Shown: positions 7,609-62,520, counted from the first letter of the stretch. The stretch is DNA of 64,000 nucleotides from the human T2T-CHM13v2.0 reference genome, Homo sapiens (GCF_009914755.1 NC_060929.1); one strand, 5' to 3'. Notes: generated by a model from the letters alone, not told the origin. A program made the numbers and translations.

Positions 7609-9076
7609 CTATGAATTTTTTCTTTTTCATAAAAGTTGTATAATTTACTGATAGGAAATTATAGTATTTCTGAAAATTATTTTAATAAATTTGGTGATAC
7701 TGCCCACTCTCATTTTTAATTTTAGAAATCTCTATCTTTTACCTTATTTACTATTTGTCAGTCTAAGTAATGAAAGACAATTAGCAAATATTTTGTTAAT
7801 TTTGTTGATATTTTCAACAAGCCAATATTTTGTTAAATTGATTTTATTTTTTAAAATTTCTATTTTATTGATTTTTGCTCTAATATTTATTACTACCTTC
7901 CATATTTTGCTTTGGCTTTAGAGTTTAGGTATTTTTTTTCTAATTTCTTAAGTTTGAAGCTTAGATTCTTGACTTATGATATTTATTCTTTCCCAATATA
8001 GGTACTTAAAGCTATACATCTTCCCTCTAAGTGCTGTTTTGATACATTATAAATTTTGATATGTTTTTACTTCCATCCACTTCAAAATATTTGCTAATTT
8101 TCTTTGTGATTTTTTTGACTTACAGGTTATTTATTTTAATTGACATGTACTAATTATACATATTTATGAGGTAGAGAGTGATGTTTTAATAAATGTATAC
8201 AATGTGTAATGATCAAATTAGGGTAATTAGCATATATATCACCTCAAATCTTTATCATTTCTTTGTGCTAGGAAAATTAAAAATCCTCTCTTCCAGCTAC
8301 TTGAAAACATACAATAAATTATTGCTAACTGTTGTCACTCCACAGTGCCACAGAGCACTAGAGCTGATCCTTCCATCTGCCTGTAATTTTGTACCCAGTA
8401 ACCAACTTCTCCATAGCCTCCTCCTCCGGCTACTCTTCCCAGGCTTTAGTAAACACAATTCTATTCTCTATATCCATAAGCTCAACTATTTTAGCTCCCA
8501 CATATGAATGAGAACATGTACTATTTATCTTTCTGTGCTTGTTTCACTTAATATAATATCCTGCAGGCTCATCCACATTGCTATAAATGAGAGGATTTGA
8601 TTTTATTTTTTATAGTGGAATAGTATTCCATTGTGCATGTGTGTATGTTTGTGTGTATAGATACATATGTGTGTGTGTATAGATACATGTATATACATTT
8701 GTTTGTCCATTCATTTGTGGATAGACACTTAGCTTGATTCTATATCTTGGCTATTGTGAATAGTGCTGTGATAAACATAGGAGTGCAGATATTTGTTTGA
8801 TATACTAATTTCCTTTCCTTTTGATAAATACCCAATAGTGGGATTGCTGAATCATATGAAAGTTCTGTTTTTAGTTTTTTGAGGAGCCGCCATACTTTCT
8901 TCCATAATAGCTGTACTAATTTACATTTTCACCAACAGTGTATAAGAGTTCCCTTTTTCACCACATCCTTGCCAGCATTTATTATTATTTTGGTCTCTTT
9001 GATAATAGCTATTCTAACTGGTGTGAGATGATATCTCATTGTGGTTTTGATTTTCATTTCTTTGTTGATTAGTGAT

Positions 9077-9515
9077 CCTGATGGTTAATATTGAGTGTCA
9101 ACTTGATTGGATTGAAGGATACAAAATATTGATTCTGGGTGTGTCTGTGAAGGTGTTGCCAAAGGAGATTAACATTTGAATCAGCGGGCTGGGAAAGGCA
9201 GACCCAGTCTTAGTCTGGGTGGGCACAATCTAATCAGCTGCCAGCATGGCTAGGATATAAGCAGGCAGCAAAATGTGAAAAGAGAGACAGGCCTAGCCTC
9301 CCAGCTTACACTTTCTCCCGTGCTGGATGCTTCCTGCTCTCAAACATCAGACTCCAAGTTCTTCAGTTTTGGAACTTGGACTGACTCTCCTTGCTCTCCA
9401 GCCTGCAGATGACCTATTATGGGACCCTGTGATCATGTGAGTTAATACTTAATAAACTTAATAAACTTAATAAAAAGTAATGTCTATTCCATTACTTCTA
9501 TCCCTGACTAATACA
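9077..9515 (+). mobile_element. MLT2A1 5' LTR
   Basis: (CC)TGATGGTTAATATTGAGTGTCAACTTGATTGGATTG...CTGACTAATACA. About 10% diverged from the 3' LTR (hand count about 31 differences in about 300 nt). Confidence 0.9.
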
Positions 9516-9520
9516 GATTT

Positions 9521-9538
9521 TGGCACCAGAAGGGCTTC
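9521..9538 (+). promoter_or_regulatory. Primer-binding site (HERV-L, tRNA-Leu type, degenerate)
   Basis: TGGCACCAGAAGGGCTTC, 5 nt after the 5' LTR end, at the position of the HERV-L PBS. Confidence 0.7.
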
Positions 9539-9559
9539 TAGAGGAGCAGAATATTAAAG

Positions 9560-11260
9560 ATGGAGCTCTTTTGTTGGTTTGGAAGTTTCTGGAGTTGGGT
9601 GCTTAATATAATTAGACCCCAAAATGCTAAGGACTCTACTTCTAATAGTATGGAGAACATTGATAGTCCTTGGCATGAAATGTTTAGTGAGTTATGAAAA
9701 TAAATGCATTTGACACTCCTGATTCACTGCCCATGAGAGGCAAGGAGTTTAGTGACTCTATACATAACACCTTTGACCATATGTGGAGAACCAAGGAACA
9801 TGATGAAGTTGATTGGTTGCTCCTAAGTGCAGTGGACAAAGTGATGAAAGAAATGATGAATTCAGAGATTCTATCTCCTGGCTTCAGAAGCAGATACTGA
9901 GTCTCAAATCTGCTAAGATTGCTCTGAATGAGAGTCTTCTGTAGAGAAAGAGCTGAAATTGTGGAAAAACAGACATAAGCTCTTATCATGTGAGTGGCTG
10001 ACCTGCAATGAAAGGTGCATGCACAGACTTGCCAGGTGTCTACTGTTAAAGTGAGGGCATTGATTGGAAAAGAATGGGACCCTGAAACTTGGAATGGGGA
10101 CATAAGGGAGGGCTCTGATGAAGCTGGAAACACTGAGTTTGTAAACGCTGATGAACCTTATTATTATTATTATTATTATTATTTCCAGAATAAACAGCTT
10201 CCCCATCCTCAGCAGTAGCAACATCCTCTCCCTGACTCATGCTGCAATCAGCCTTTCCACTTTTGCCTGAGGAGATAAACCCTGAGCTGCCTGAGGTAAC
10301 AATGATGGCCTCCCATGAGGCAGTTGCCAGGCAAGATAATGTTGATTCTCCTCAGGACAAGCCACCAACACCCCTGTTTGCTTCTAGACCTATAACTAAA
10401 GTCCTGGTGGGCCTCTAAAGGTGAAGTTGAGAGGGTGACCCATAAGGAGGTGTGCTACACTTGAAAAGAACTGCTTGACTTTTCTAATTTATAAAAACAG
10501 AAATCTGGAGAACAGGCATGGAAATGAATATTAGGGGTGTGGGATAATGGTTGAAGAAACACAGATTTGGATCAGGCTCAATTTATTGATTTGGGCTTAT
10601 TAAGTAGGGATTCTGCATTTAATGTTGCAGCTCGGGGAGTTAAAAAATGTTCTAATAGTTTATTTACTTGGTTAGCTGAAATATGGATTAAAAGATGCCC
10701 CCCTGTGAGTGAGTTGAAAATGCCTGTTCTCCCTTGGTTTAATGTGGAGGAGACTGGGATGGTGGAGTGAATTAGTCATTTTAGACTTACTCATCCCATC
10801 TAGGGGGGTCCAGAAGATATACCCTTGACCAATGCCTTGTGAAATAGATTTGTGAGGGCAGCACCTGAATATTTGAAAAGCCCTGTAATTGCTCTTCTCT
10901 CTATGTCAGATCTAACACTGGAAACACAGTCACTCAACTACAACATTTAAATACAGTGGGAATAATTGGATTCTTTGGGGGCAGGGGCCAAGTGGTAGCA
11001 CTAAACTATCAAAGGCAAAATGGGTATAGCTACCATAATGGAAAGCAGAGGCAGAGAAGCAATCACACTAGTCTGACTCGGGTAGAGCCTTGGCATTGCC
11101 TAATTAATCATGATGTTCTTAGAAGTGAAATTGATAGGAAGCCTACTGCATTCCTACTTATAGTACACAAATAATACTTCTATGTTGAATGGACAAAAGA
11201 CTAATTTGAATTTTAAAAACAAAGAATCACGGCCCCTCAATTGATTCCGGATTTGAGCCA
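9560..11260 (+). pseudogene. gag: HERV-L gag, multiply disrupted
   Basis: Fragments KINAFDTPDSLPMRGKEFSDSIHNTF, VKVRALIGKEWDPETWNGD and DQAQFIDLGLLSRDSAFNVAARG. Many stops and frameshifts; (TTA)n expansion at about 10158-10182. Confidence 0.85.
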
Positions 11261-11369
11261 GTTTACTGGCCCAGAACCCCTTGAATAAAGGGGAGGCCAG
11301 GTCCCCTTGAGGAAGGACTCCACTACATTGCCGACAATTGTAGTGAATCTTTCTCCCATCCTTCCCCAA

Positions 11370-14880
<3,511 letters not shown>

Positions 14881-15260
14881 ACCATGCTTTGTGATTAAGG
14901 TCAATGGGAAACTACAATAGCCCAATCCAGGCAGGACTACAAATGACTCAGACCCTTCAGGAATGAAGGTTTGTGTTACTCCACCAAGGAAAATCTATGA
15001 CCTGCTGAGGTGCTTGCTGAAGGTAAAAGGAATACAGAATGGGTAGTAGAAGAAGGTAGTCATTAATACCAGCTATGACCATGTGACCAGCTGCAGAAAT
15101 GAGGATTGAAATTGTCATGAGTATTTCCTCCTCTTTTGTTAAAAACATATTTGTGCATGTATACACTTGGACTAATAAAAGATCTTCATTTAATTTCCTT
15201 TCTGCTTTACCATGTGACATAAGATTTATTGACTTCATATCAGCATTTAAATATTGTTAA

Positions 15261-17572
15261 ATTTTTTTATTATTATTCTTTAAGTTCTGGGATACATGAG
15301 CAGAACGTAACAGTTTGTTACACAGGTATATATGTGCCATGGTGGTTTGCTGCACCCATCAACCTGTCATCAACATTAGGTATTTTTCCTAATGCTATCC
15401 CTCCCCTAGTCCCCACCCCGCGACAGGCCCCAGTGCATGATGTTCCCCTCCCTGTGCCCATATGTTCTCATTGTTCAACTCCCACTTATGATTGAGAACA
15501 TGTGGTGTTTGGTTTTCTGTTCCTGTGTTAGTTTGCTGAAAATTATGGTTTCCAGCTTCATCCATGTCCCTGAAAAAGACAAAAACTCATTCTTTTTTAC
15601 AGTTGCAAGTATTCCATGGTGTGTATGTGCCTCGTTTTCTTTACCCATGCTATCATTGATGGGCATTTGGGTTGATTCCAAGTCTTTGCTATTGTGAATA
15701 GTGCTGTAATAAACATACGTGTGCATGTGTTTTTAGAGAAGAATGATTTATAATCCTTTGGGTATATACCCAGTCATGGGATTTCTGGGTCAAATTGTAT
15801 TTCTAGTTCTAGATCCTTGAGGAATCGCCACACTGTCTTCCACAATGGTTGAACTAATTTACACTCCCACCAACAGTGGAAAAGCATTCCTATTTTTCCA
15901 CATCCTCTCCAGTGTCTGTTGTTTCCTGACTTTTTAATGATCACCATTCTAACTGGCGTGAGATGGTATCTCATTGTGGTTTTGGTTTGCATTTCTCTAA
16001 TGACCAGTGATGATGAGCTTTTTTTCCTATGTTTGTTGGCTGCATACCTGTCTTCTTCTGAGAAGTGTCTGTTTATATCTTTCACCCACTTTTTGATGGG
16101 GTTGTTTGTTTTTTTTCTTGTAAATGTGTTGAAGTTTCTTGTAGATTCTGGATATTAGCCCTTTGTCCAACGGGTAGATTGCAAAAATTTTCTCCCATTC
16201 TGTAGACTTCCTGTTTACTCTGATAGTTTCTTTTTGCTGTGCAGAAGCTCTTTAGTTTAATTAGATCCCATTTGTCATTTATGGCTTTTGTTGTCCTTGC
16301 TTTTGGTGTTTTAGTAATGAAGTCTTCGCCCATACCTTTGTCCTGAATGGTAATGCCTCGGTTTTCTTCTAGGGTTTTTATGGTTTTAGGCCTTAGGTTT
16401 AAGCCTTTAATCCATCTTGAGTTAATTTTTGTATAAGCTGTAAGGAAGGGGTTCAGTTTCAGTTCTCTGCATATGGCTAGCCAGTTTTCCCAACACCACT
16501 TCTTTAAAACTTTAAATTTCATATGGAACCAAGAACGAGTCTGTATAGCCAAGACAATCTTAATCAAAAAGAACAAACCTGGAGGCATCATGCTACCTGA
16601 CTTCAAACTATACTACAAGGCTACAGTAACAAAAACAGCATGGTTCTGGTACCAAAACAGATATATAGACCAATGGAACAGAACGGAGGCCTTTGAAATA
16701 ACACCACACATCTACAACCATCTGATCTTTGACAAACCTGACATAAACAAGCTATGGGGAAAGGATTCCCTATTTAATAAAAGGTGTTGCTGCCTTTCTT
16801 TCAGAGATGCCCTGCCCAGAGAGGAGGAATCTAGAGAGGCAGTCTGACTACAGTGGCTTTGTGGCACTGCAGTGGGCCCCGCCCAGTCCAAACTTCCAGG
16901 AGGCTTTGTTTATACTTTGAGGGGAAAAACCGCCTACTCAAGTCTCATTTATGGTGGACACCTCTCCCCGCACCAAGCTCGAGCATCCCAGGTCAACTTC
17001 AGACTACTGTGCTGGCAGCCAGAATTTCAAGCCAGTGGATCTTAGCTTGCTGGGCTCCGTGGGGTTGGGATCCGCTAAGCAAGACCACTTGGCTCACTGC
17101 CTTCAGCTTCGGGGGTTCTGTCTCACTGGCTTTCCAGGTGCCACTGGGGTATGGAAAAAAAAATAATCCTGCAGCTACCTCAGTTTCTGCCCAAAGGGCC
17201 ACCCAGTTTTGTGCTTGAAACCCAGGGCCCTTCTTGTGTAGGCACCTGAGGGAATCTTTTGGTCAGTGGGTTGTGAAGACTGTGGGAATAGCATAGTATC
17301 TGGGCTGAATAGCACCCCTCTCTCATGGCAGGGTCCCTCATGGCTTCCCTTGGCAAAGGGAGGGAGTTCCCCAACCCCTTGTGCTTCCCAGGTGAGGTGA
17401 TGCCTCACCCTGCTTCTTCTTGCCCTCCATGGGCTGCACTCACTGTCTAACTGGTCCCAGTGAGATGAACTGGGTACCTCAGTTGGAAATGCAGAAATCA
17501 CTTGCCTTCTGTGTTGATCTCTCTAGGAGCTGCAGGCCAGAGCTGTTCCTATTTGGCCATCTTGCCTGGGAA
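15261..17572 (-). mobile_element. Rearranged L1PA (about PA7): 3' end (-), inverted ORF2 piece (+, about 16503-16790), 5'UTR (-)
   Basis: L1PA 3'UTR/ORF2 end at 15261-16500, sense-strand ORF2 fragment, then 5'UTR ending GGCCATCTTG (YY1 site, 17555-17564). TSD TAAATATTGTTAA (15248-15260) / TAAGTATTGTTAA (17573-17585). Confidence 0.9.
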
Positions 17573-18124
17573 TAAGTATTGTTAATTTTATGTAGTAGTA
17601 TTTGGGTTGGGGATTGGTGCATTTCTGGTTGTACCAAGGATAGTTGTATTATGTTAGGCATAATTATGACCTATTATTGTCTTTATTTGAACATTATATA
17701 TGATCTCAGGAGGTGTGTATGGGTTCAAGTTGACAAAGGGTGGATTTGTGATGGTTAATACTGAGTGACAACTTGATTGGATTGAAGGATACAAAGTACT
17801 GATCCTGGGTGTGTCTGTGAGGGTGTCGCCAAAGGAGGTTAACCTTTGAGTCAGTGGGCTGGGGAAGGCAGACCCACCCTTAGTCTGGGTGGGTGCAATC
17901 TAATCAGCTGCCAGCATGGCTAGAATGTAAGCAGGCAGAAAAATGTGAAAAGAGAGACTGGCTTAGCTCCCCAGCCTACATCTTTCTCCTGTGCTGGATG
18001 CTTCCTGCCCATGAACATCGGACTCCAAGTTCTTCAGTTTTGGAACTTGGACTGCCCTATTGGGGAACCTTGTGATTGTGTGAGTTAATACTTAATAAAC
18101 TCATATATATATATATATATTATA

Positions 18125-18495
18125 TTCCTCTAAGAACTGAGACAAGACAAGGTTGCCAACTTTTACCACTCTTATTCAACATAATACTGAAAGTATTAGC
18201 CAGAGCAATTAGAGAGGAGAAAGATATAAAAGGTATCCAAATTTGAAAAGAGGAAGTCAAATTGCCCTGGTTTGCAGATGACATGATCTTGTATACAGAC
18301 AAATTTAAAAACTTCACCAAAGAACTCTTGGAACTGATAAATGAATTCAGTAAATTTGCAGAATGCAAAATTAACATACAAAAATTGGTAGTGTTTTTAT
18401 ACACCAATAATGAACTGAAAAAGACATTGAGAAAGCAATCCTATTTACAATACCTACAAAAAAAATGCTAGGAATAAATTTAACCAAGGAGGTAA
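18125..18495 (+). repeat. 371-bp inverted duplicate of 19918-20288 (L1MA ORF2)
   Basis: Reverse-complement match with 2 mismatches. The ORF track shows mirrored peptides (MPWFADDMILYTDKFKNFTKEL / ...FTEEL). Confidence 0.95.
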
Positions 18496-18652
18496 TATAT
18501 ATATAGGTTTAGTTTATATATATAATATATATATAGGTTTAGTATATATATTATATATAAACCTGTAATATATATATAGGTTTAGTGTATATATATAATG
18601 TATAAACCTATAATATATATATAGGTTTAACCAAGGAGGTAATATATATATA

Positions 18653-18845
18653 GGTTTAGTTTGCTAATGTTTTGTTGAGCATGTTTGGCATATATGTTCA
18701 TTAGAGATATTGGCCTGTAGTTTTGTTTTTAGTGTATGTGTGTCTTTGTCTGGTTTCAGTGTCAGGATAATGCTGGCCTCATAGAACGAGTTTGAAAGCA
18801 TTTCTTTGTTTTCAATATGTTGAAATAGTTTGAGGAGAATTGGTG

Positions 18846-18851
<6 letters not shown>
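18653..18851 (+). repeat. 199-bp direct duplicate of 20588-20786 (L1MA ORF2)
   Basis: GGTTTAGTTTGCTAATG...GGTGTCAGTT, 6 mismatches by hand count. Confidence 0.95.

Positions 18852-18903
<52 letters not shown>
18852..18903. repeat. (TA)~26 microsatellite
   Basis: Uninterrupted TA run. Confidence 0.97.
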
Positions 18904-18906
<3 letters not shown>

Positions 18907-21900
18907 GGCAGTTTATTAAGTATATATATGTATATATTCCATTAGTTCTGTCCTCCTAGAGAACCCTTACTAATACAGTGATGATGAGTATTTTTTTTTA
19001 TACTTGGGAGTTTGAATGTCTTCTTTTGAGGAATGTCTATTCAGAATATTTGCTCTATTATTTCTTTGTTGTTGTTGTTGTTGAGTTGTCTGAGTTCCTT
19101 GTATATTCTGGATATAAATTCTATGCTTAATGAATAGTTTACAAATATTTTTCCCTTTATTCAGGGTCTCTGAACTCTATTGATTATTTCCTTTGCTGTA
19201 CAGAAGATTTTTAGTTTGATATAATCCCATTTGCCTAGTTTTGCTTTTGTTGTTTGTGCTTTTAATGTTCTATCCATAAAATCTTTCCCCAGACCAATGT
19301 CCCCAAAAAATTTCCCAATGTTTTCTTCTGGTAATTTTATGGTTTTGTGTCTTACGTTTAAGTCTTTAATATATTTTTAGTTGATTTTTGTATGTTGTGA
19401 GAGATAGGAGTCTAGTTTTATTCTGCACATGGATATCCAGTTTTCCCAGCACCATTTATTGAATAGGGTGTCCTTTCCCTATTGTTAATTTTTGTTGACT
19501 TTGTTGAAAATCAGATGGCTGTAGGTGTGCAGTTTTATTTCTGGATTCTCTATTCTGTCTCATTGATCTATGTGTTTGTTTTTATGCCAATACCTGCTTT
19601 TTTGGTTACTATAGTTTTGTATATTTTGTAGTTGGGTAGCTTGATGCCTCTAGCTTTGTTCTTTTTGCTCAGGATTACTTTGGCTCTCTGGGGTATTTTT
19701 TTGTGGCTCCATATGAACTTTAGGATTTCATAATAAAATTTCTGTGAAAAATAGTATTTTGACAGAGATTGCATTGAATTTGTAGATTGCTTTGGGTAAT
19801 ATGCTTATTTTGACAATATTAATACTTTCAGTTCTTAAACATAGTTGTTCTTCCAATTTTGTGTGCACTTATCAATTTCTATCATCAATGTTTTGTAGTT
19901 TTTATTGTAGACATTGTTTACCTCCTTGGTTAAATTTATTCCTAGCATTTTTTTTGTAGGTATTGTAAATAGGATTGCTTTCTCAATGTCTTTTTCAGTT
20001 CATTATTGGTGTATAAAAACACTACCAATTTTTGTATGTTAATTTTGCATTCTGCAAATTTACTGAATTCATTTATCAGTTCTAAGAGTTCTTCGGTGAA
20101 GTTTTTAAATTTGTCTGTATACAAGATCATGTCATCTGCAAACCAGGGCAATTTGACTTCCTCTTTTCAAATTTGGATACCTTTTATATCTTTCTCCTCT
20201 CTAATTGCTCTGGCTAATACTTTCAGTATTATGTTGAATAAGAGTGGTAAAAGTTGGCAACCTTGTCTTGTCTCAGTTCTTAGAGGAACAGCTTTTAACT
20301 TTCTTCTGTTCAATATGATGTCAGTTGCAAATTTGTTGGAAATGGACATTACTGTGTTGAAGTACCTTCCTTACACATCTAATTTGTCAAAAGTTTTTTT
20401 TTTAATCATAACAGTATTTCTTTTTTTTTTCAAATGCTTTGTATCTTTTGAGATGATTGTGCAGTTTTTGTCCTTCATTCTCCTAATGTGATGTATTTCG
20501 TTTATTGATTTGCATTTGTTAAGTCATCCTTGAACCCCTGGAATAAATCTCTCTGGATGATAGTGTATAATCTTTTTCATGGCTATTGGTTTAGTTTGCT
20601 AATGTTTTGTTGAGCATGTTTTGCATATATGTTCATTAGAGATACTGGCCTGCAGTTTTGTTTTTAGTGTATGTGTGTCTTTGTCTGGTTTCAGTGTCAG
20701 GGCAATGCTGGCCTCATAGAATGAGTTTGAAAGCATTTCTTTGTTTTCAATATGTTGAAATAGTTTGAGGAGAATTGGTGTCAGTTCTTCTTTAAAAGTT
20801 TGGTGTGAAGTTTTCTAACTTTAAAAGTTATTAGTGAAGCTGTCTGGTCCTGGAATTTTCTTTGTTAGGAGACCTGTTACTACTGATTCAATTGCATTTC
20901 TCATTACTGAACTATTCAGATTTTCTATTTCTTCTTTGTTTAATCTTAGTGGGTCATATGTGGCCTGGAATTTATCCATTTCCTCTAGTTTTTCCTACTT
21001 GTTGATGTTTAGTTGTTCATAGTAATCTCTAATGATCCTTTGTGTTTCTGTGGTATCAATTGTAATATCTTTTTATTTCTGATTTTATTTGAGTATTTTC
21101 TCTTTTTAAAATAAACATCTAGCTAATTTTCCATTTCACTTACCTTGTTAAAAACCAACTTGTATTCTGTTGATCTTTTCTTTTCTTTAGTCTCTCTTTT
21201 GATAATTTTATGCTGATACTAATTAAGTTTCCACCTACTACTTTTGGGTTTGGTTTGTTCTTGGTTTTCTATTTCCTTAAGATGAAACGTTAGATTGTTT
21301 ATTGAAATCTTCCTGCTTTTTGATGCAGGCATTTATTGCTATTAACTTCCCTCTTAGTATTGCTTTTGTTGTATCCCATAAGTTTCGATATGTTGTGTTT
21401 TTATTTTCATTTGTTTCCATTTTTAAAAATTTTTCTTAATTTCTTCATTGATCTATTGTTTGTTTAGAAGTCTGTTGTTTAGTTTTCATGTATTTGTAGT
21501 TTCCAAAACTCCTCTTGTTATTGCTTTCTAGTTTTATTCCACTGTGGTCAGAAAAGATACTTGATATGAATTTGATTTTTAAAAATTTGTTGAGACTTGT
21601 TTTGTGGTCTAACATGTGGTCTACCCTGGAGAATACTCCATGTGCTAAAAAGAGAAATGTGTATTCTGCAACTGTTGGATGAACTGGTTTGTAAATATCT
21701 TTTAGGTTCATTTGGCCCATGGAGCAGTTTAAGATCGATATTTCTTTGTTGACTTTCTCTCTAGGTGATCTGTCCATTGCTAGGAGTGCAATGTTGAAAT
21801 CTCCATCTATTATTATGTTGGGGTCTATCTTTGCCTTTAGCTCTAATGGTATCTGTTTTATATATCTGTGTGCTCAAGTGTTGGGTGCATACATATTTAA

Positions 21901-23083: not shown

Positions 23084-23488
<405 letters not shown>

Positions 23489-37789: not shown

Positions 37790-38754
37790 CAGCAGTCCCC
37801 CTTTATCTGTGGTTTTGCTTTCTGCAGTTTAAGTTAAGCAGAGTTCAGTATGAGATATTTTGAGAGAGAGAGAGAGAGAGAGACCACATTCGCATAGCTT
37901 TTATTACAGTATACTGTTACAATGGTTCTATTTTACTATTTTTGTTTTTAATATGTTACCATGCATAATTTATAAATTAAACTTTATTATATGTATACAT
38001 GTATAGGAAAAAAACATAATATTTATAGGATTTGGTACTATCTGTGGTTTCAGGCATCCACTGGAGGTCTTGGAGCATGTGATGGTTAATACTGAGTGTC
38101 TACTTGACTGAATTGAAGGTTGCAATATTGATCCTGGTGTGTGTCTTTGAGGGTGTTGCCAAAGGAGATTAACATTTGAGTCAGTGGGCTGGGGAAGGCA
38201 GACCCACCCTTAATTGGGTGGGCACCATCTAATCAGCTGCCAGATAATACAAAGCAGACAGAAAATGTGAAGCGATGAGATGGGCCTAGCCTCCCAGCCT
38301 ACATCTTTCTCCTGCGCTGGATGCTTCCTGACCTCAAACACTGGACTCCAAGTTCTTCAGTTTTGATACTTGGACTGGCTCTCCTTGCTCCTCAGCTTGC
38401 AGACAGACTATTGTGGGACCTTGTGATTGTATAAGTTAATACTTAATAAACTCCTCTCTCTCTCTCCATATATATAATATCTATATCTATATATCCATAT
38501 ATATATACACACTTACTAAACTCCTCTCTCTCTATATATACACACACATATATATACACATGCATATACATATACACACACTTGTATATATACACATATA
38601 TGTGTGTATATATGTACATGTATGTGTGTGTGTGTGTGTATATATATATATACACACACACACACACATACACATATATCCTATTAGTTCTGTCCCTCTA
38701 AGAGAACCCTGCCTAACACACAGCATATCCCTCATGAATAAAGGGGGAATACTG
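37790..38754 (+). mobile_element. MER44A (TcMar-Tigger) interrupted by an MLT2A1 solo LTR
   Basis: TA|CAGCAGTCCCCCTTTATC ... GAATAAAGGGGGAATACTG|TA terminal inverted repeats with a TA TSD. Internal GAGAGAGACCACATTC. Confidence 0.9.
38078..38720 (+). mobile_element. MLT2A1 solo LTR with an expanded internal microsatellite
   Basis: TGTGATGGTTAATACTGAG...AGAGAACCCTGCCTAACACA. TSD GAGCA / CAGCA. (CT)/(TA)/(CA) array at 38452-38678. Confidence 0.92.
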
Positions 38755-57172: not shown

Positions 57173-58905
57173 TAACTTACAAGGGATGTGAAGGACCTGT
57201 TCAAGGAGAACTACAATACATTGGTCAAGAAAATAAGAGAGGACACAAACAAATGGAAAAACATTCCATGCTCATGGATAGGAAGAATCAATAACGTGAA
57301 AATGGCCCTACTGCCTAAAGTAATTTATAGATTCAATGCTATTCCCATCAAGCTACCACTGATTTTCTTCACAGAATTAGAAAAAAGTACTTTAAATGTC
57401 ATAAGAAACCAAAACAGAGCCTGTATAGCCAAGACAATCCTAAGCAAAAAGAACAAAGCTGGAGGCATCATGCTACCTGACTTCAAAGCATACCAAAAGG
57501 CTACAGTAACCAAAACAGCATGTTACTGGTACCAAAATAGATATATAGACCATGGAACAGAACACAGTCCCCAGAAATAACAACACACACCTACAACCAT
57601 CTGATCTTTGACAAACCTGACAAAAACAAGCAATGGGGAAACGATTCCCTATTTAATAAATGGTGTTGGGGAAACTGGCTACCCATATGCAGAAAACTGA
57701 AACTGGACCCCTTCCTTACACCTTATGCAAAAATTAACTCAAGATGGATTAAAGACCTAAATGTAAGACCTAAAACCATAAAAATGCTAGAAGAAAACCT
57801 AGGCAATACCATTCAGGAAATAGGCATGGGCAAAGACTTCATGACTAAAACACCAAAAGGAATGGCAACAAAAGCCAAAATTGACAAATGGGATCTAATT
57901 AAAGTAAAGAGCTTCTGCACAGCAAAAGAAACTATCATTAGAGTGAACAGGAAACCTACAGAATGGGAGAAAATTTTTGCAATCTATCCATCTGACAAAG
58001 AGCTAATATCTTGTAGATATTAAGAATCTACAAGAAACTTAAACAAATTTACAAGAAAAAAAACAACCCCATCAAAAAATTGGTGAAGGATATGAACAGA
58101 CACTTCTCAAAAGAAGACATTTATGAAGCCAACAAACATATGAAAAAAAGCTCATCATCACTGGTCATTAAAGAAATACAAATGAAAACCACAATGAGAT
58201 ACCATCTCATGCCAGTTAGAATGGAGATCATAAAAAAGTCAGGAAGCAACAGATAGTGGAGAGGATGTGGAGAATTAGGAACGCTTTTACACTGTTGGGA
58301 GTGTAAATTAGTTCAACCACTGTGGAAGACAGTGTGGCGATTCCTCAAGGATCTAGAACCAGAAATACCATTTGACCCAGCAATCCCATTAGTGGGTATA
58401 TACCCAAAGGATTATAAATCATTCTACTATAAAGACACATGCACACGTATTTTTATTGTAGCACTATTTACAATAGCAAAAACTTGGGACCAATGCAAAT
58501 GCCCATCAATGATAGACTGGATAAAGAAAATGTGGCTCATATACACCATGGAATACTATGCAGCCACAAAAAAGAATGAGTTCATGCCCTTTGCAGGGAC
58601 ATGAATAAGTCTGGAAACCATCATCCTCAGCAAACTAACACAGGAACAGAAAACCAAACACCTCATGTTCTCACTCATAAGTGGGAGTTGAACAATGAGA
58701 ACACATGGACACAGGGAGGGGATCATCGCACACCAGGGGCCTGTCAGTGGGTAGGGGGCAAGGGGAGGGATAGTATTAGGAGAAATATCTAATGTAGATG
58801 ATGGGTTTATGGGTGGAGCAAACCATTATGGCACATGTATACCTATGTAACAAATCTGTACGTTCTGCCCATGTATCCCAGAACTTAAGGTATCATAATA
58901 ATAAA

Positions 58906-59052
58906 ATACAGAAACAAGCTATCTGTGAAAATGCTTTGTGATGTGTGGATTCATCTCACAGAATGGAACCTGTGTTTCATTTCACCAGGTTGGAAACACC
59001 ACTCTTTTTTAAGAATTTATGAAGAGACATTTCCGAACCCATTGAAGCCTAT

Positions 59053-59056
<4 letters not shown>
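58906..59056 (+). repeat. Alpha-satellite monomer (about 150 bp, A-type, no CENP-B box) transduced by L1
   Basis: AGAAACAAGCTATCTGTGAAAATGCTTTGTGATGTGTGGATTCATCTCACAGA...GGTTGGAAACAC...CTTTTT...AGAATTT...GACATTT...CCATTGAAGCCTATAGT follows the alphoid consensus order. Followed by A29. Confidence 0.88.
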
Positions 59057-59086
<30 letters not shown>

Positions 59087-59092
59087 TTACTA

Positions 59093-59481
59093 TCAGCAAA
59101 CTAACACAGGAACAGAAAACCAAACACCTCATGTTCTCACTTATAAGTGTGAGTTAAACAATGAGAACACATAGACACAGGGAGGGGATCATCACACACC
59201 GGGGGCCTGTCAGTGGGTAGGGGGCAAGGGGAGGGATAGCATTAGGAGAAATACCTAATATAGATGATGGGTTGATGGGTGCAGCAAACCATTATGGCAC
59301 ATGTATACCTATGTAACAAATCTGTACATTCTGCACATTTATCCCAGAAATTAAGGTATCATAATAATAAAATAAAGAAACAAGCTATCTGTGAAAATGC
59401 TTTGGGAAAGACTCTTTTTGAAGAATTTATGAAGAGACATTTCTGAAACTATTGAAGCCTATAGTAAAAAAAAAAAAAAAA
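59093..59481 (+). repeat. Tandem duplicate of L1 3'UTR + alpha-satellite (internal deletion of about 55 bp) + poly(A)
   Basis: Matches 58627-59084 with about 16 differences in about 285 nt of the L1 part, and shares private variants with it. Confidence 0.92.

Positions 59482-61649: not shown

Positions 61650-62520
<871 letters not shown>

What the first reader, a model, noticed from the sequence alone, without database searches (positions are those of the whole stretch)
18103..18930. Multi-step locally templated insertion inside the (TA)n tract of the HERV-L 3' LTR
Seen in sequence, in order: (TA)n; a 371-bp inverted copy of 19918-20288 entered through a TTCC microhomology (LTR TATATTCC vs donor GTTCCTC); TA spacers with repeated short starts of a second donor (GGTTTAGT at 18506, 18536, 18579, 18653); a fold-back TAAACCTATA...TATAGGTTTA (18603-18629); a re-copy of the first donor's end (TTTAACCAAGGAGGTAA, about 18626); a 199-bp direct copy of 20588-20786; (TA)26; and an inverted copy of the LTR's own poly(A)-signal flank (AAGGGCAGTTTATTAAGTAT). 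There is no poly(A) tail or TSD, so this is not retrotransposition. Established: long (TA)n tracts form cruciforms and stall forks; serial template switching (FoSTeS/MMBIR or Pol theta) copies nearby DNA. Inference: a germline repair scar recording several successive switches. It is about 1.4% from its donors against about 10% LTR-LTR divergence, so it is much younger than the provirus.
Basis: partly seen in the sequence, partly recalled or inferred. Interest (0 to 1): 0.75.

Follow-up and report, generated by a model that had tools for sequence, protein, structure and literature searches.

The report
Old repair scar in TA repeat
An 800-base patch of copied neighbouring DNA sits inside a TA repeat of an old retroviral end-repeat on human chromosome 5, likely left by a germline repair event several million years ago; it is a clear case of a known kind of DNA-copying error and has no sign of function.

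Summary
The structure is real. About 800 nt sit in the (TA)n tract of an ERV-L 3' LTR: a 371-nt inverted and a 199-nt direct copy of the neighbouring L1, TA spacers, and an inverted LTR piece. The adjacent L1 is the best donor found genome-wide (99% and 97%, others at most 81%). The 8 insert/donor differences split 4:4 between insert and donor, which argues against misassembly and puts the event near the human-chimpanzee split (1.4%, CI 0.6-2.7%). No variant is listed here in 11 long-read genomes. Best reading: serial microhomology-mediated template switching at a stalled or broken TA tract, a known class (complex germline MMB-TI). New but modest: 8 of 41 scored sister LTR tracts carry smaller locally templated re-copies, so this LTR family may serve as a natural replicate series for germline repair at TA repeats.

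The parts
9077..18977 (+). ERV-L-type provirus (HERV-L / MLT2-type LTRs; family names recalled) inserted into an older L1; target duplication GTGAT at 9072-9076 and 18978-18982
   Evidence: Pfam rve E 2e-14; weak RNase H, integrase zinc-binding and dUTPase matches below the curated cut-offs; LTR pair; target duplication
17747..18102 (+). 3' LTR left of the TA tract, ending at the poly(A)-signal flank
18103..18128 (+). (AT)9 plus TATATTCC: first pass through the tract and the first bases of the right flank; TTCC shared with donor A
   Evidence: TTCC background 34 of 6527 positions
18125..18495 (-). Segment A, inverted copy of L1 19918-20288 (ORF2 reverse transcriptase region)
   Evidence: 369 of 371 identical; RVT_1 match in both copies, below cut-off
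18479..18662 (.). Amplified A/B junction: five copies of one 18-mer, two inverted AAACC units, exact 37-nt repeat 18479-18515 = 18626-18662
   Evidence: 18474-18670 folds at z = -4.0 as single-stranded DNA
18653..18851 (+). Segment B, direct copy of L1 20588-20786
   Evidence: 193 of 199 identical
18852..18923 (-). (TA)26 plus inverted copy of the LTR poly(A)-signal flank, holding a stretch that the present left flank lacks
18924..18977 (+). Rest of the tract and the LTR 3' end, with the second TATATTCC at 18933-18940
19918..20288 (+). Donor of A in the host L1
   Evidence: best genome-wide match 99%, next 81%
20588..20786 (+). Donor of B in the host L1
   Evidence: best genome-wide match 97%, next at most 81%

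Best explanation
The insert is a patch of DNA copied from 1-2 kb away into the (TA)n tract of an old LTR, likely made in the germline near the time of the human-chimpanzee split by a nascent strand that likely stalled or broke at the hairpin-forming tract and switched template several times at microhomologies of 1-4 nt (MMBIR/FoSTeS type). Shown: the pieces, their donors, orientation, junction homologies and the symmetric later divergence. Inferred: the path. Read along the top strand it runs tract, TTCC, A (opposite strand), TA, B (same strand), tract and LTR flank (opposite strand), then back to the right flank; the sequence cannot tell which direction synthesis ran. The palindromic tract would act as a hub, since it can pair with either strand. 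The single A-TA-B junction was then re-copied by slippage and fold-back, during or after the event, into a small minisatellite. No function is implied.
For: Local donors are the best in the genome. Both strands serve as template, and TATATTCC appears on both sides, as expected if one strand overshot the tract and returned. Two junctions have 4-nt homology with background frequencies of 0.52% (TTCC) and 0.72% (TTTA). Of 8 differences, 4 are derived in the donor and 4 in the insert, judged on 33 L1 paralogue loci. All five GGTTTA share the same 12-nt upstream spacer, and its last A differs from the donor's T, which 29 of 31 paralogues share. Complex germline templated insertions from up to five templates are documented (PMC8421209); Pol theta/Pol delta MM-BIR gives insertions of median 155-234 bp with fold-backs (PMC13065848); TA repeats are break hotspots repaired by MMEJ with small duplications (PMC13645644). 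8 of 41 scored sister LTR tracts hold smaller local re-copies.
Against: A and B differ in divergence (2 of 371 versus 6 of 199; Fisher p = 0.024, or 0.054 if two adjacent changes count as one), which a single event explains only by chance or by later conversion between the A arms. Junctions with the TA tract have 1-3 nt of homology, which is uninformative beside a TA repeat. The inverted LTR piece has G where the left flank has C and keeps bases lost there, so an extra slip or a later change is needed. No ape orthologue could be examined. The cited experiments concern cancer cells, ecDNA, telomere crisis and human polymorphisms, not old fixed events.
Confidence: 0.6

Rival explanations
1. Two-ended break repair: a nuclease cut the TA cruciform, the left end copied A, the right end copied the LTR flank and B, and the ends were joined at TA microhomology (Pol theta-type end joining; the inverted flank could come from an opened hairpin end).
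For: TA breaks are cut by ERCC1-ERCC4 and repaired by MMEJ with small duplications (PMC13645644). [quoted passage not shown] Loss of bases at the left flank fits end trimming. In L067, L072 and L081 the LTR end is lost right at the tract.
Against: The left side carries the right-flank bases TATATTCC, which needs a pass across the tract first. Pieces of 200-370 nt from 1-2 kb away are longer than typical Pol theta insertions (recalled).
Confidence: 0.2
2. Several separate events at a recurrently fragile tract: for example an earlier fold-back made a long palindrome, B came later, A later still.
For: A/B divergence differs. Small inverted flank re-copies occur alone in sister LTRs L070 and L091.
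Against: A's end and B's start sit in one junction 10 nt apart, and the donors lie 300 nt apart on the same side. The rate difference is marginal.
Confidence: 0.13
3. RNA-templated repair: both broken ends primed on one plus-strand read-through transcript from the LTR, as in twin priming, giving inverted A, an internal 300-nt gap and direct B.
For: The order inverted piece, internal deletion, direct piece matches the twin-priming layout (PMC2837659). The provirus is on the plus strand. RNA patches at breaks are reported (PMC5110952; PMC1920257).
Against: No poly(A) tail and no endonuclease-type site. In either reading one of the three copied pieces needs the minus strand as template. No transcript evidence was obtained, and no gene is annotated here.
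Confidence: 0.05
4. Assembly artefact at TA runs.
For: TA runs are hard to sequence (recalled); reads were not available.
Against: The insert keeps the family-typical base at 4 sites where the donor has changed. The GRCh38 offset at a polymorphic Alu 4 kb downstream agrees within about 25 nt with the offset upstream (one recalled coordinate), so GRCh38 likely has the same 800 nt.
Confidence: 0.02

Closest known systems
Complex germline MMB-TI (Osia et al. 2021, PMC8421209; abstract passage, first part of section 10 and search passages read, supplement searched)
   Same: Germline insertion copied from several nearby templates in both orientations, with microhomology or microhomeology, returning to the original template.
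   Different: Those are variants against the reference, found in short reads with microsatellite calls filtered out. This one is about 800 nt, sits inside a microsatellite, appears fixed and is millions of years old.
MMEJ repair of TA-repeat breaks (Billing et al. 2026, PMC13645644; abstract, sections 8 and 10, passages read)
   Same: TA tract as break site; short templated duplications as outcome.
   Different: Shown on ecDNA in cancer cells; the words 'germline' and 'LTR' do not occur in its main text.
Mitotic MM-BIR / chromoanasynthesis (Ngo et al. 2026, PMC13065848; abstract and passages read)
   Same: Segment sizes of 150-250 bp, 2-3 nt overlaps, fold-backs, repeated copying of one locus.
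   Different: Telomeric or induced breaks, donors from many chromosomes.
Class 2 TSIP and non-classical L1 insertion (PMC5110952, PMC1920257; passages read)
   Same: No poly(A) tail; L1-derived patch at an AT-rich site, with simple-repeat filler in some NCLI loci.
   Different: TSIP donors are distant and NCLI involves young L1 (<2% from consensus). Here the donor is the adjacent old L1 copy, about 20% from its paralogues.
Twin priming (PMC2837659; passages read)
   Same: Inverted plus direct piece with an internal gap.
   Different: No poly(A), no endonuclease-type site, third piece from the opposite strand.

Membership tests
Complex MMB-TI (MMBIR/FoSTeS-like templated insertion) | Insertion copied from nearby template(s), at least one inverted | tested here: met
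Complex MMB-TI (MMBIR/FoSTeS-like templated insertion) | Several template switches, then return to the original template | tested here: met
   three donors plus tract passes; right flank intact
Complex MMB-TI (MMBIR/FoSTeS-like templated insertion) | Microhomology or microhomeology at junctions | tested here: met
   TTCC and TTTA (4 nt, background under 1%), TAT; the others 1-2 nt and uninformative
Complex MMB-TI (MMBIR/FoSTeS-like templated insertion) | Single event against an uninserted ancestral allele | not testable with these tools
   no ape genomes held; A/B divergence differs marginally
Complex MMB-TI (MMBIR/FoSTeS-like templated insertion) | Dependence on Pol delta, PIF1 or Pol theta | not testable with these tools
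   needs genetics
L1 target-primed retrotransposition, including twin priming | Poly(A) tail | tested here: not met
L1 target-primed retrotransposition, including twin priming | Target duplication at a TTTT/A site | tested here: not met
   an 8-nt repeat TATATTCC exists, but not in a TTTT/A context on either strand (motif from PMC5110952)
L1 target-primed retrotransposition, including twin priming | Inverted plus direct piece with internal deletion | tested here: met
   A inverted, 299-nt gap, B direct
Non-classical L1 insertion | Young L1 source (<2% from consensus) | tested here: not met
   nearest paralogues at most 81%
Class 2 TSIP | Distant donor | tested here: not met
   donors 1-2 kb away
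Class 2 TSIP | Polymorphic in humans | tested here: inconclusive
   no row at the estimated place in Table S5 of PMC8082928, 11 individuals; small sample, estimated coordinates

The most novel reading that the evidence does not exclude
The TA tract built into this LTR family is a recurrent germline breakage site that has captured locally templated patches at a sizeable share of its copies, then grown them into minisatellites. Thousands of sister LTRs would form a dated natural experiment on repair at cruciform-forming TA repeats, with this locus at the large end.
Probability: 0.45. Interest if true: 0.55.

Novelty: new member of a known kind. Interest (0 to 1): 0.33.

Why it matters
The locus itself looks neutral: no gene or annotated element lies in the window. 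Its value is as a record. Break and repair at TA repeats has been shown in yeast and in cancer cells; this is a readable, datable germline outcome with every donor still in place. Repeat annotation would likely show it as L1 fragments, and the MMB-TI survey filtered out microsatellite calls. If the pattern in sister LTRs holds genome-wide, it makes the germline repair spectrum at TA cruciforms testable with ape and pangenome assemblies.

Tried and rejected
Distant L1 donor: rejected, at most 81% among the 40 best candidates scored in each (10,429 and 2,602 first-look candidates). Copying errors as the source of the mismatches: rejected, half are donor-side. Independent restarts on donor B: rejected. 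The 5' LTR or the solo LTR at 38 kb as donor of the inverted piece: neither has that stretch now; the exact 27-mer occurs only here and at chr1:203499517, so an outside LTR donor is possible but less simple. The 8-mer flank test (10 of 41 versus 3 of 205 control window pairs) is inflated: flank words share TA bases with the tract, and 8 of the 10 hits come from the sample selected for long tracts (similarity sample alone 2 of 23 versus 3 of 115, p = 0.19). I therefore use a stricter hand count of 8 of 41. The motif offsets printed are wrong (indexing slip) and were not used. The great-ape structural-variant paper was not held, so its supplements, which may list this locus, were not seen. The supplement search of PMC8421209 at estimated coordinates found nothing. 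PMC9237045 held no twin-priming passage. Ten paper searches showed no paper on this locus or on templated inserts in this LTR family's tract, judged from listings; one search returned none. Earlier scan findings were not available.

Full report
Observation. The sequence at 18103-18930 is as described. Segment A (18125-18495) is an inverted copy of 19918-20288 with 2 of 371 mismatches, and segment B (18653-18851) is a direct copy of 20588-20786 with 6 of 199. (TA)26 follows, then an inverted copy of the LTR's poly(A)-signal flank, then the LTR end. The insert lies in the 3' LTR of an ERV-L-type provirus. Frames in its body match the integrase core above the Pfam cut-off, and RNase H, integrase zinc-binding and dUTPase below it; a 5-nt target duplication GTGAT flanks the element. 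The provirus interrupts an older L1, which supplies both donors and aligns in one piece with another L1 in the window, so the stretch between the inverted arms is in its original orientation. The names HERV-L, MLT2, L1MA and AluY are recalled, not from a call.

Donor. Whole-genome searches return the adjacent copies at 99% and 97%, and all other scored L1 copies at 81% or less (40 best candidates scored in each). The donor is local.

Reality and age. With 33 paralogous L1 loci as outgroup, 4 of the 8 differences are derived in the donor (20094, 20645, 20653, 20703) and 4 in the insert (18330, 18687, 18767, 18787). An assembly error would copy today's donor, and error-prone synthesis would load changes on the insert; neither fits. 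Divergence is 8 of 570 = 1.40% (95% CI 0.6-2.7%), against 37 of 352 = 10.5% between the two LTRs. Human and chimpanzee differ by 1.23% with a split at 6.5-7.5 million years (PMC7488140, passages); simple scaling gives about 8 million years, range about 3.5-16. Against a neat story, A (0.5%) and B (3.0%) differ (Fisher p = 0.024, or 0.054 counting two adjacent changes as one). Chance, conversion between the inverted A arms, or two events could explain this. In a long-read table of 11 Japanese genomes (PMC8082928, Table S5) the only chr5 row between 160.9 and 161.1 Mb is a 332-bp deletion at frequency 0.364. It fits a young Alu at window 23162-23488. That anchor agrees within about 25 nt with an offset taken from a recalled GRCh38 coordinate of LINC02159, 49 kb upstream of the window. 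So GRCh38 likely carries the same 800 nt, and no variant was called at the insert. This is inference from a small sample and one recalled number.

Corrections to the anatomy. First, all five GGTTTA copies are preceded by the identical 12-mer AATATATATATA, and 18479-18515 equals 18626-18662 over 37 nt, spanning A's end, the spacer and B's start. The A before GG differs from the donor's T, which 29 of 31 paralogues share. Independent primings from a variable tract would not repeat one spacer and one mismatch five times, so one junction was made and then re-copied. The stretch folds far better than shuffles (z = -4.0). Second, TATATTCC occurs on both sides of the insert (18121-18128 and 18933-18940). 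It is not in an L1-endonuclease context and there is no poly(A), but it suggests that one strand crossed the tract and came back. TTCC at the A entry has a background frequency of 0.52%, and TTTA at the re-copy 0.72%; the other junctions have 1-3 nt. Third, the inverted LTR piece carries a CCCTTT-type stretch missing from today's left flank. That stretch is the commonest state among sister LTRs (10 of 26 anchor hits in 24 of 29 loci), so the piece likely records the tract's flank before bases were lost. The exact 27-mer occurs only here and once on chr1.

Sister LTRs. I examined 50 other copies: 29 from a similarity search and 21 from an exact pattern that selects long tracts. 41 had both anchors within 600 nt; 3 lacked the left anchor and 6 lacked a near right anchor. 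By hand count 8 of 41 hold a clear templated re-copy. L068 has 98 nt of its own LTR (94 of 98 identical). L069 has an exact 20-mer from 762 nt downstream. L060, L076, L082 and L085 have direct flank copies. L070 and L091 have inverted flank copies, amplified 11 times in L091. Two more (L054, L084) have only a 7-mer. For donors outside the LTR the rate was 1 of 41 with own flanks and 4 of 205 with foreign flanks at an 11-nt threshold, so capture from outside the LTR is not shown to be enriched; only about 1.5 kb of flank was held per side. Six of the 8 come from the long-tract sample. Among the unscored, L067, L072 and L081 lose the LTR end at the tract, L042 has a very long AT-rich run and L086 holds another element. 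None has an insert like this one, so the locus is the extreme of a common small-scale process.

Mechanism. Shown: pieces, donors, strands, junctions, age class. Inferred: a strand stalled or broke at the hairpin-forming tract ((TA)26 region, z = -4.5) and switched template repeatedly, with the palindromic tract as a hub (0.6). Rivals are two-ended cruciform cleavage with Pol theta-type patching (0.2), successive events (0.13), RNA-templated twin priming (0.05; the A-gap-B layout fits, but one piece always needs the minus strand) and misassembly (0.02).

Comparison. It meets the testable features of the complex germline MMB-TI class: 33 and 26 such events in two people, up to five templates (PMC8421209). 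It resembles the products of mitotic MM-BIR in size and fold-backs (PMC13065848) and links to MMEJ at TA breaks (PMC13645644). It fails the tests for target-primed retrotransposition, non-classical L1 insertion and distant-donor TSIPs. Ten paper searches listed nothing on this locus; most subscription papers and the great-ape variant tables were not available.

Verdict. A real, old and probably neutral new member of a known kind. The family-wide pattern is the part worth following.

Noticed in passing
window 58905-59084 and 58627-59481: A 150-nt alpha-satellite-like monomer (name recalled; 229 matches at up to 87%, in tandem arrays of about 170-nt spacing on chr1, 3, 4, 5, 16, 19 and X) sits between an L1 3' end and an A29 tail, like a 3' transduction. 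L1 end and tail are then duplicated in tandem with an internal deletion (17 of 315 and 4 of 71 mismatches).
   Followed up: partly
window 62013-62085 and 62416-62488: A 73-nt direct repeat (12 mismatches) flanks an Alu, far longer than a usual target duplication.
   Followed up: no
window 38441-38680: A solo LTR of the same family whose tract holds a re-copy of its own poly(A)-signal flank amid TC/TA/CA repeats.
   Followed up: partly
window 9447-9474: The 5' LTR has three tandem copies of a 9-mer over its poly(A) signal and has lost the TA tract.
   Followed up: no
window 15261-16789: An L1 inside the provirus with an inverted part at 16509-16789, the usual 5'-inversion layout.
   Followed up: no
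window 23162-23488: A young Alu that likely is the 332-bp presence/absence variant at frequency 0.364 in PMC8082928 Table S5; 97% identical to the Alu at 14358-14623 inside the provirus.
   Followed up: partly
window 18125-18851 versus donors: 7 of the 8 changes run from A/T to G/C, a possible trace of GC-biased conversion; not tested.
   Followed up: no
L068 (G000:C19:14880647-14880743): A 98-nt copy of the LTR's own upstream part inside its TA tract, 94 of 98 identical.
   Followed up: partly
L091 (G000:C23, near 121860942): An inverted flank motif amplified 11 times between TA runs, a minisatellite born in the tract.
   Followed up: partly
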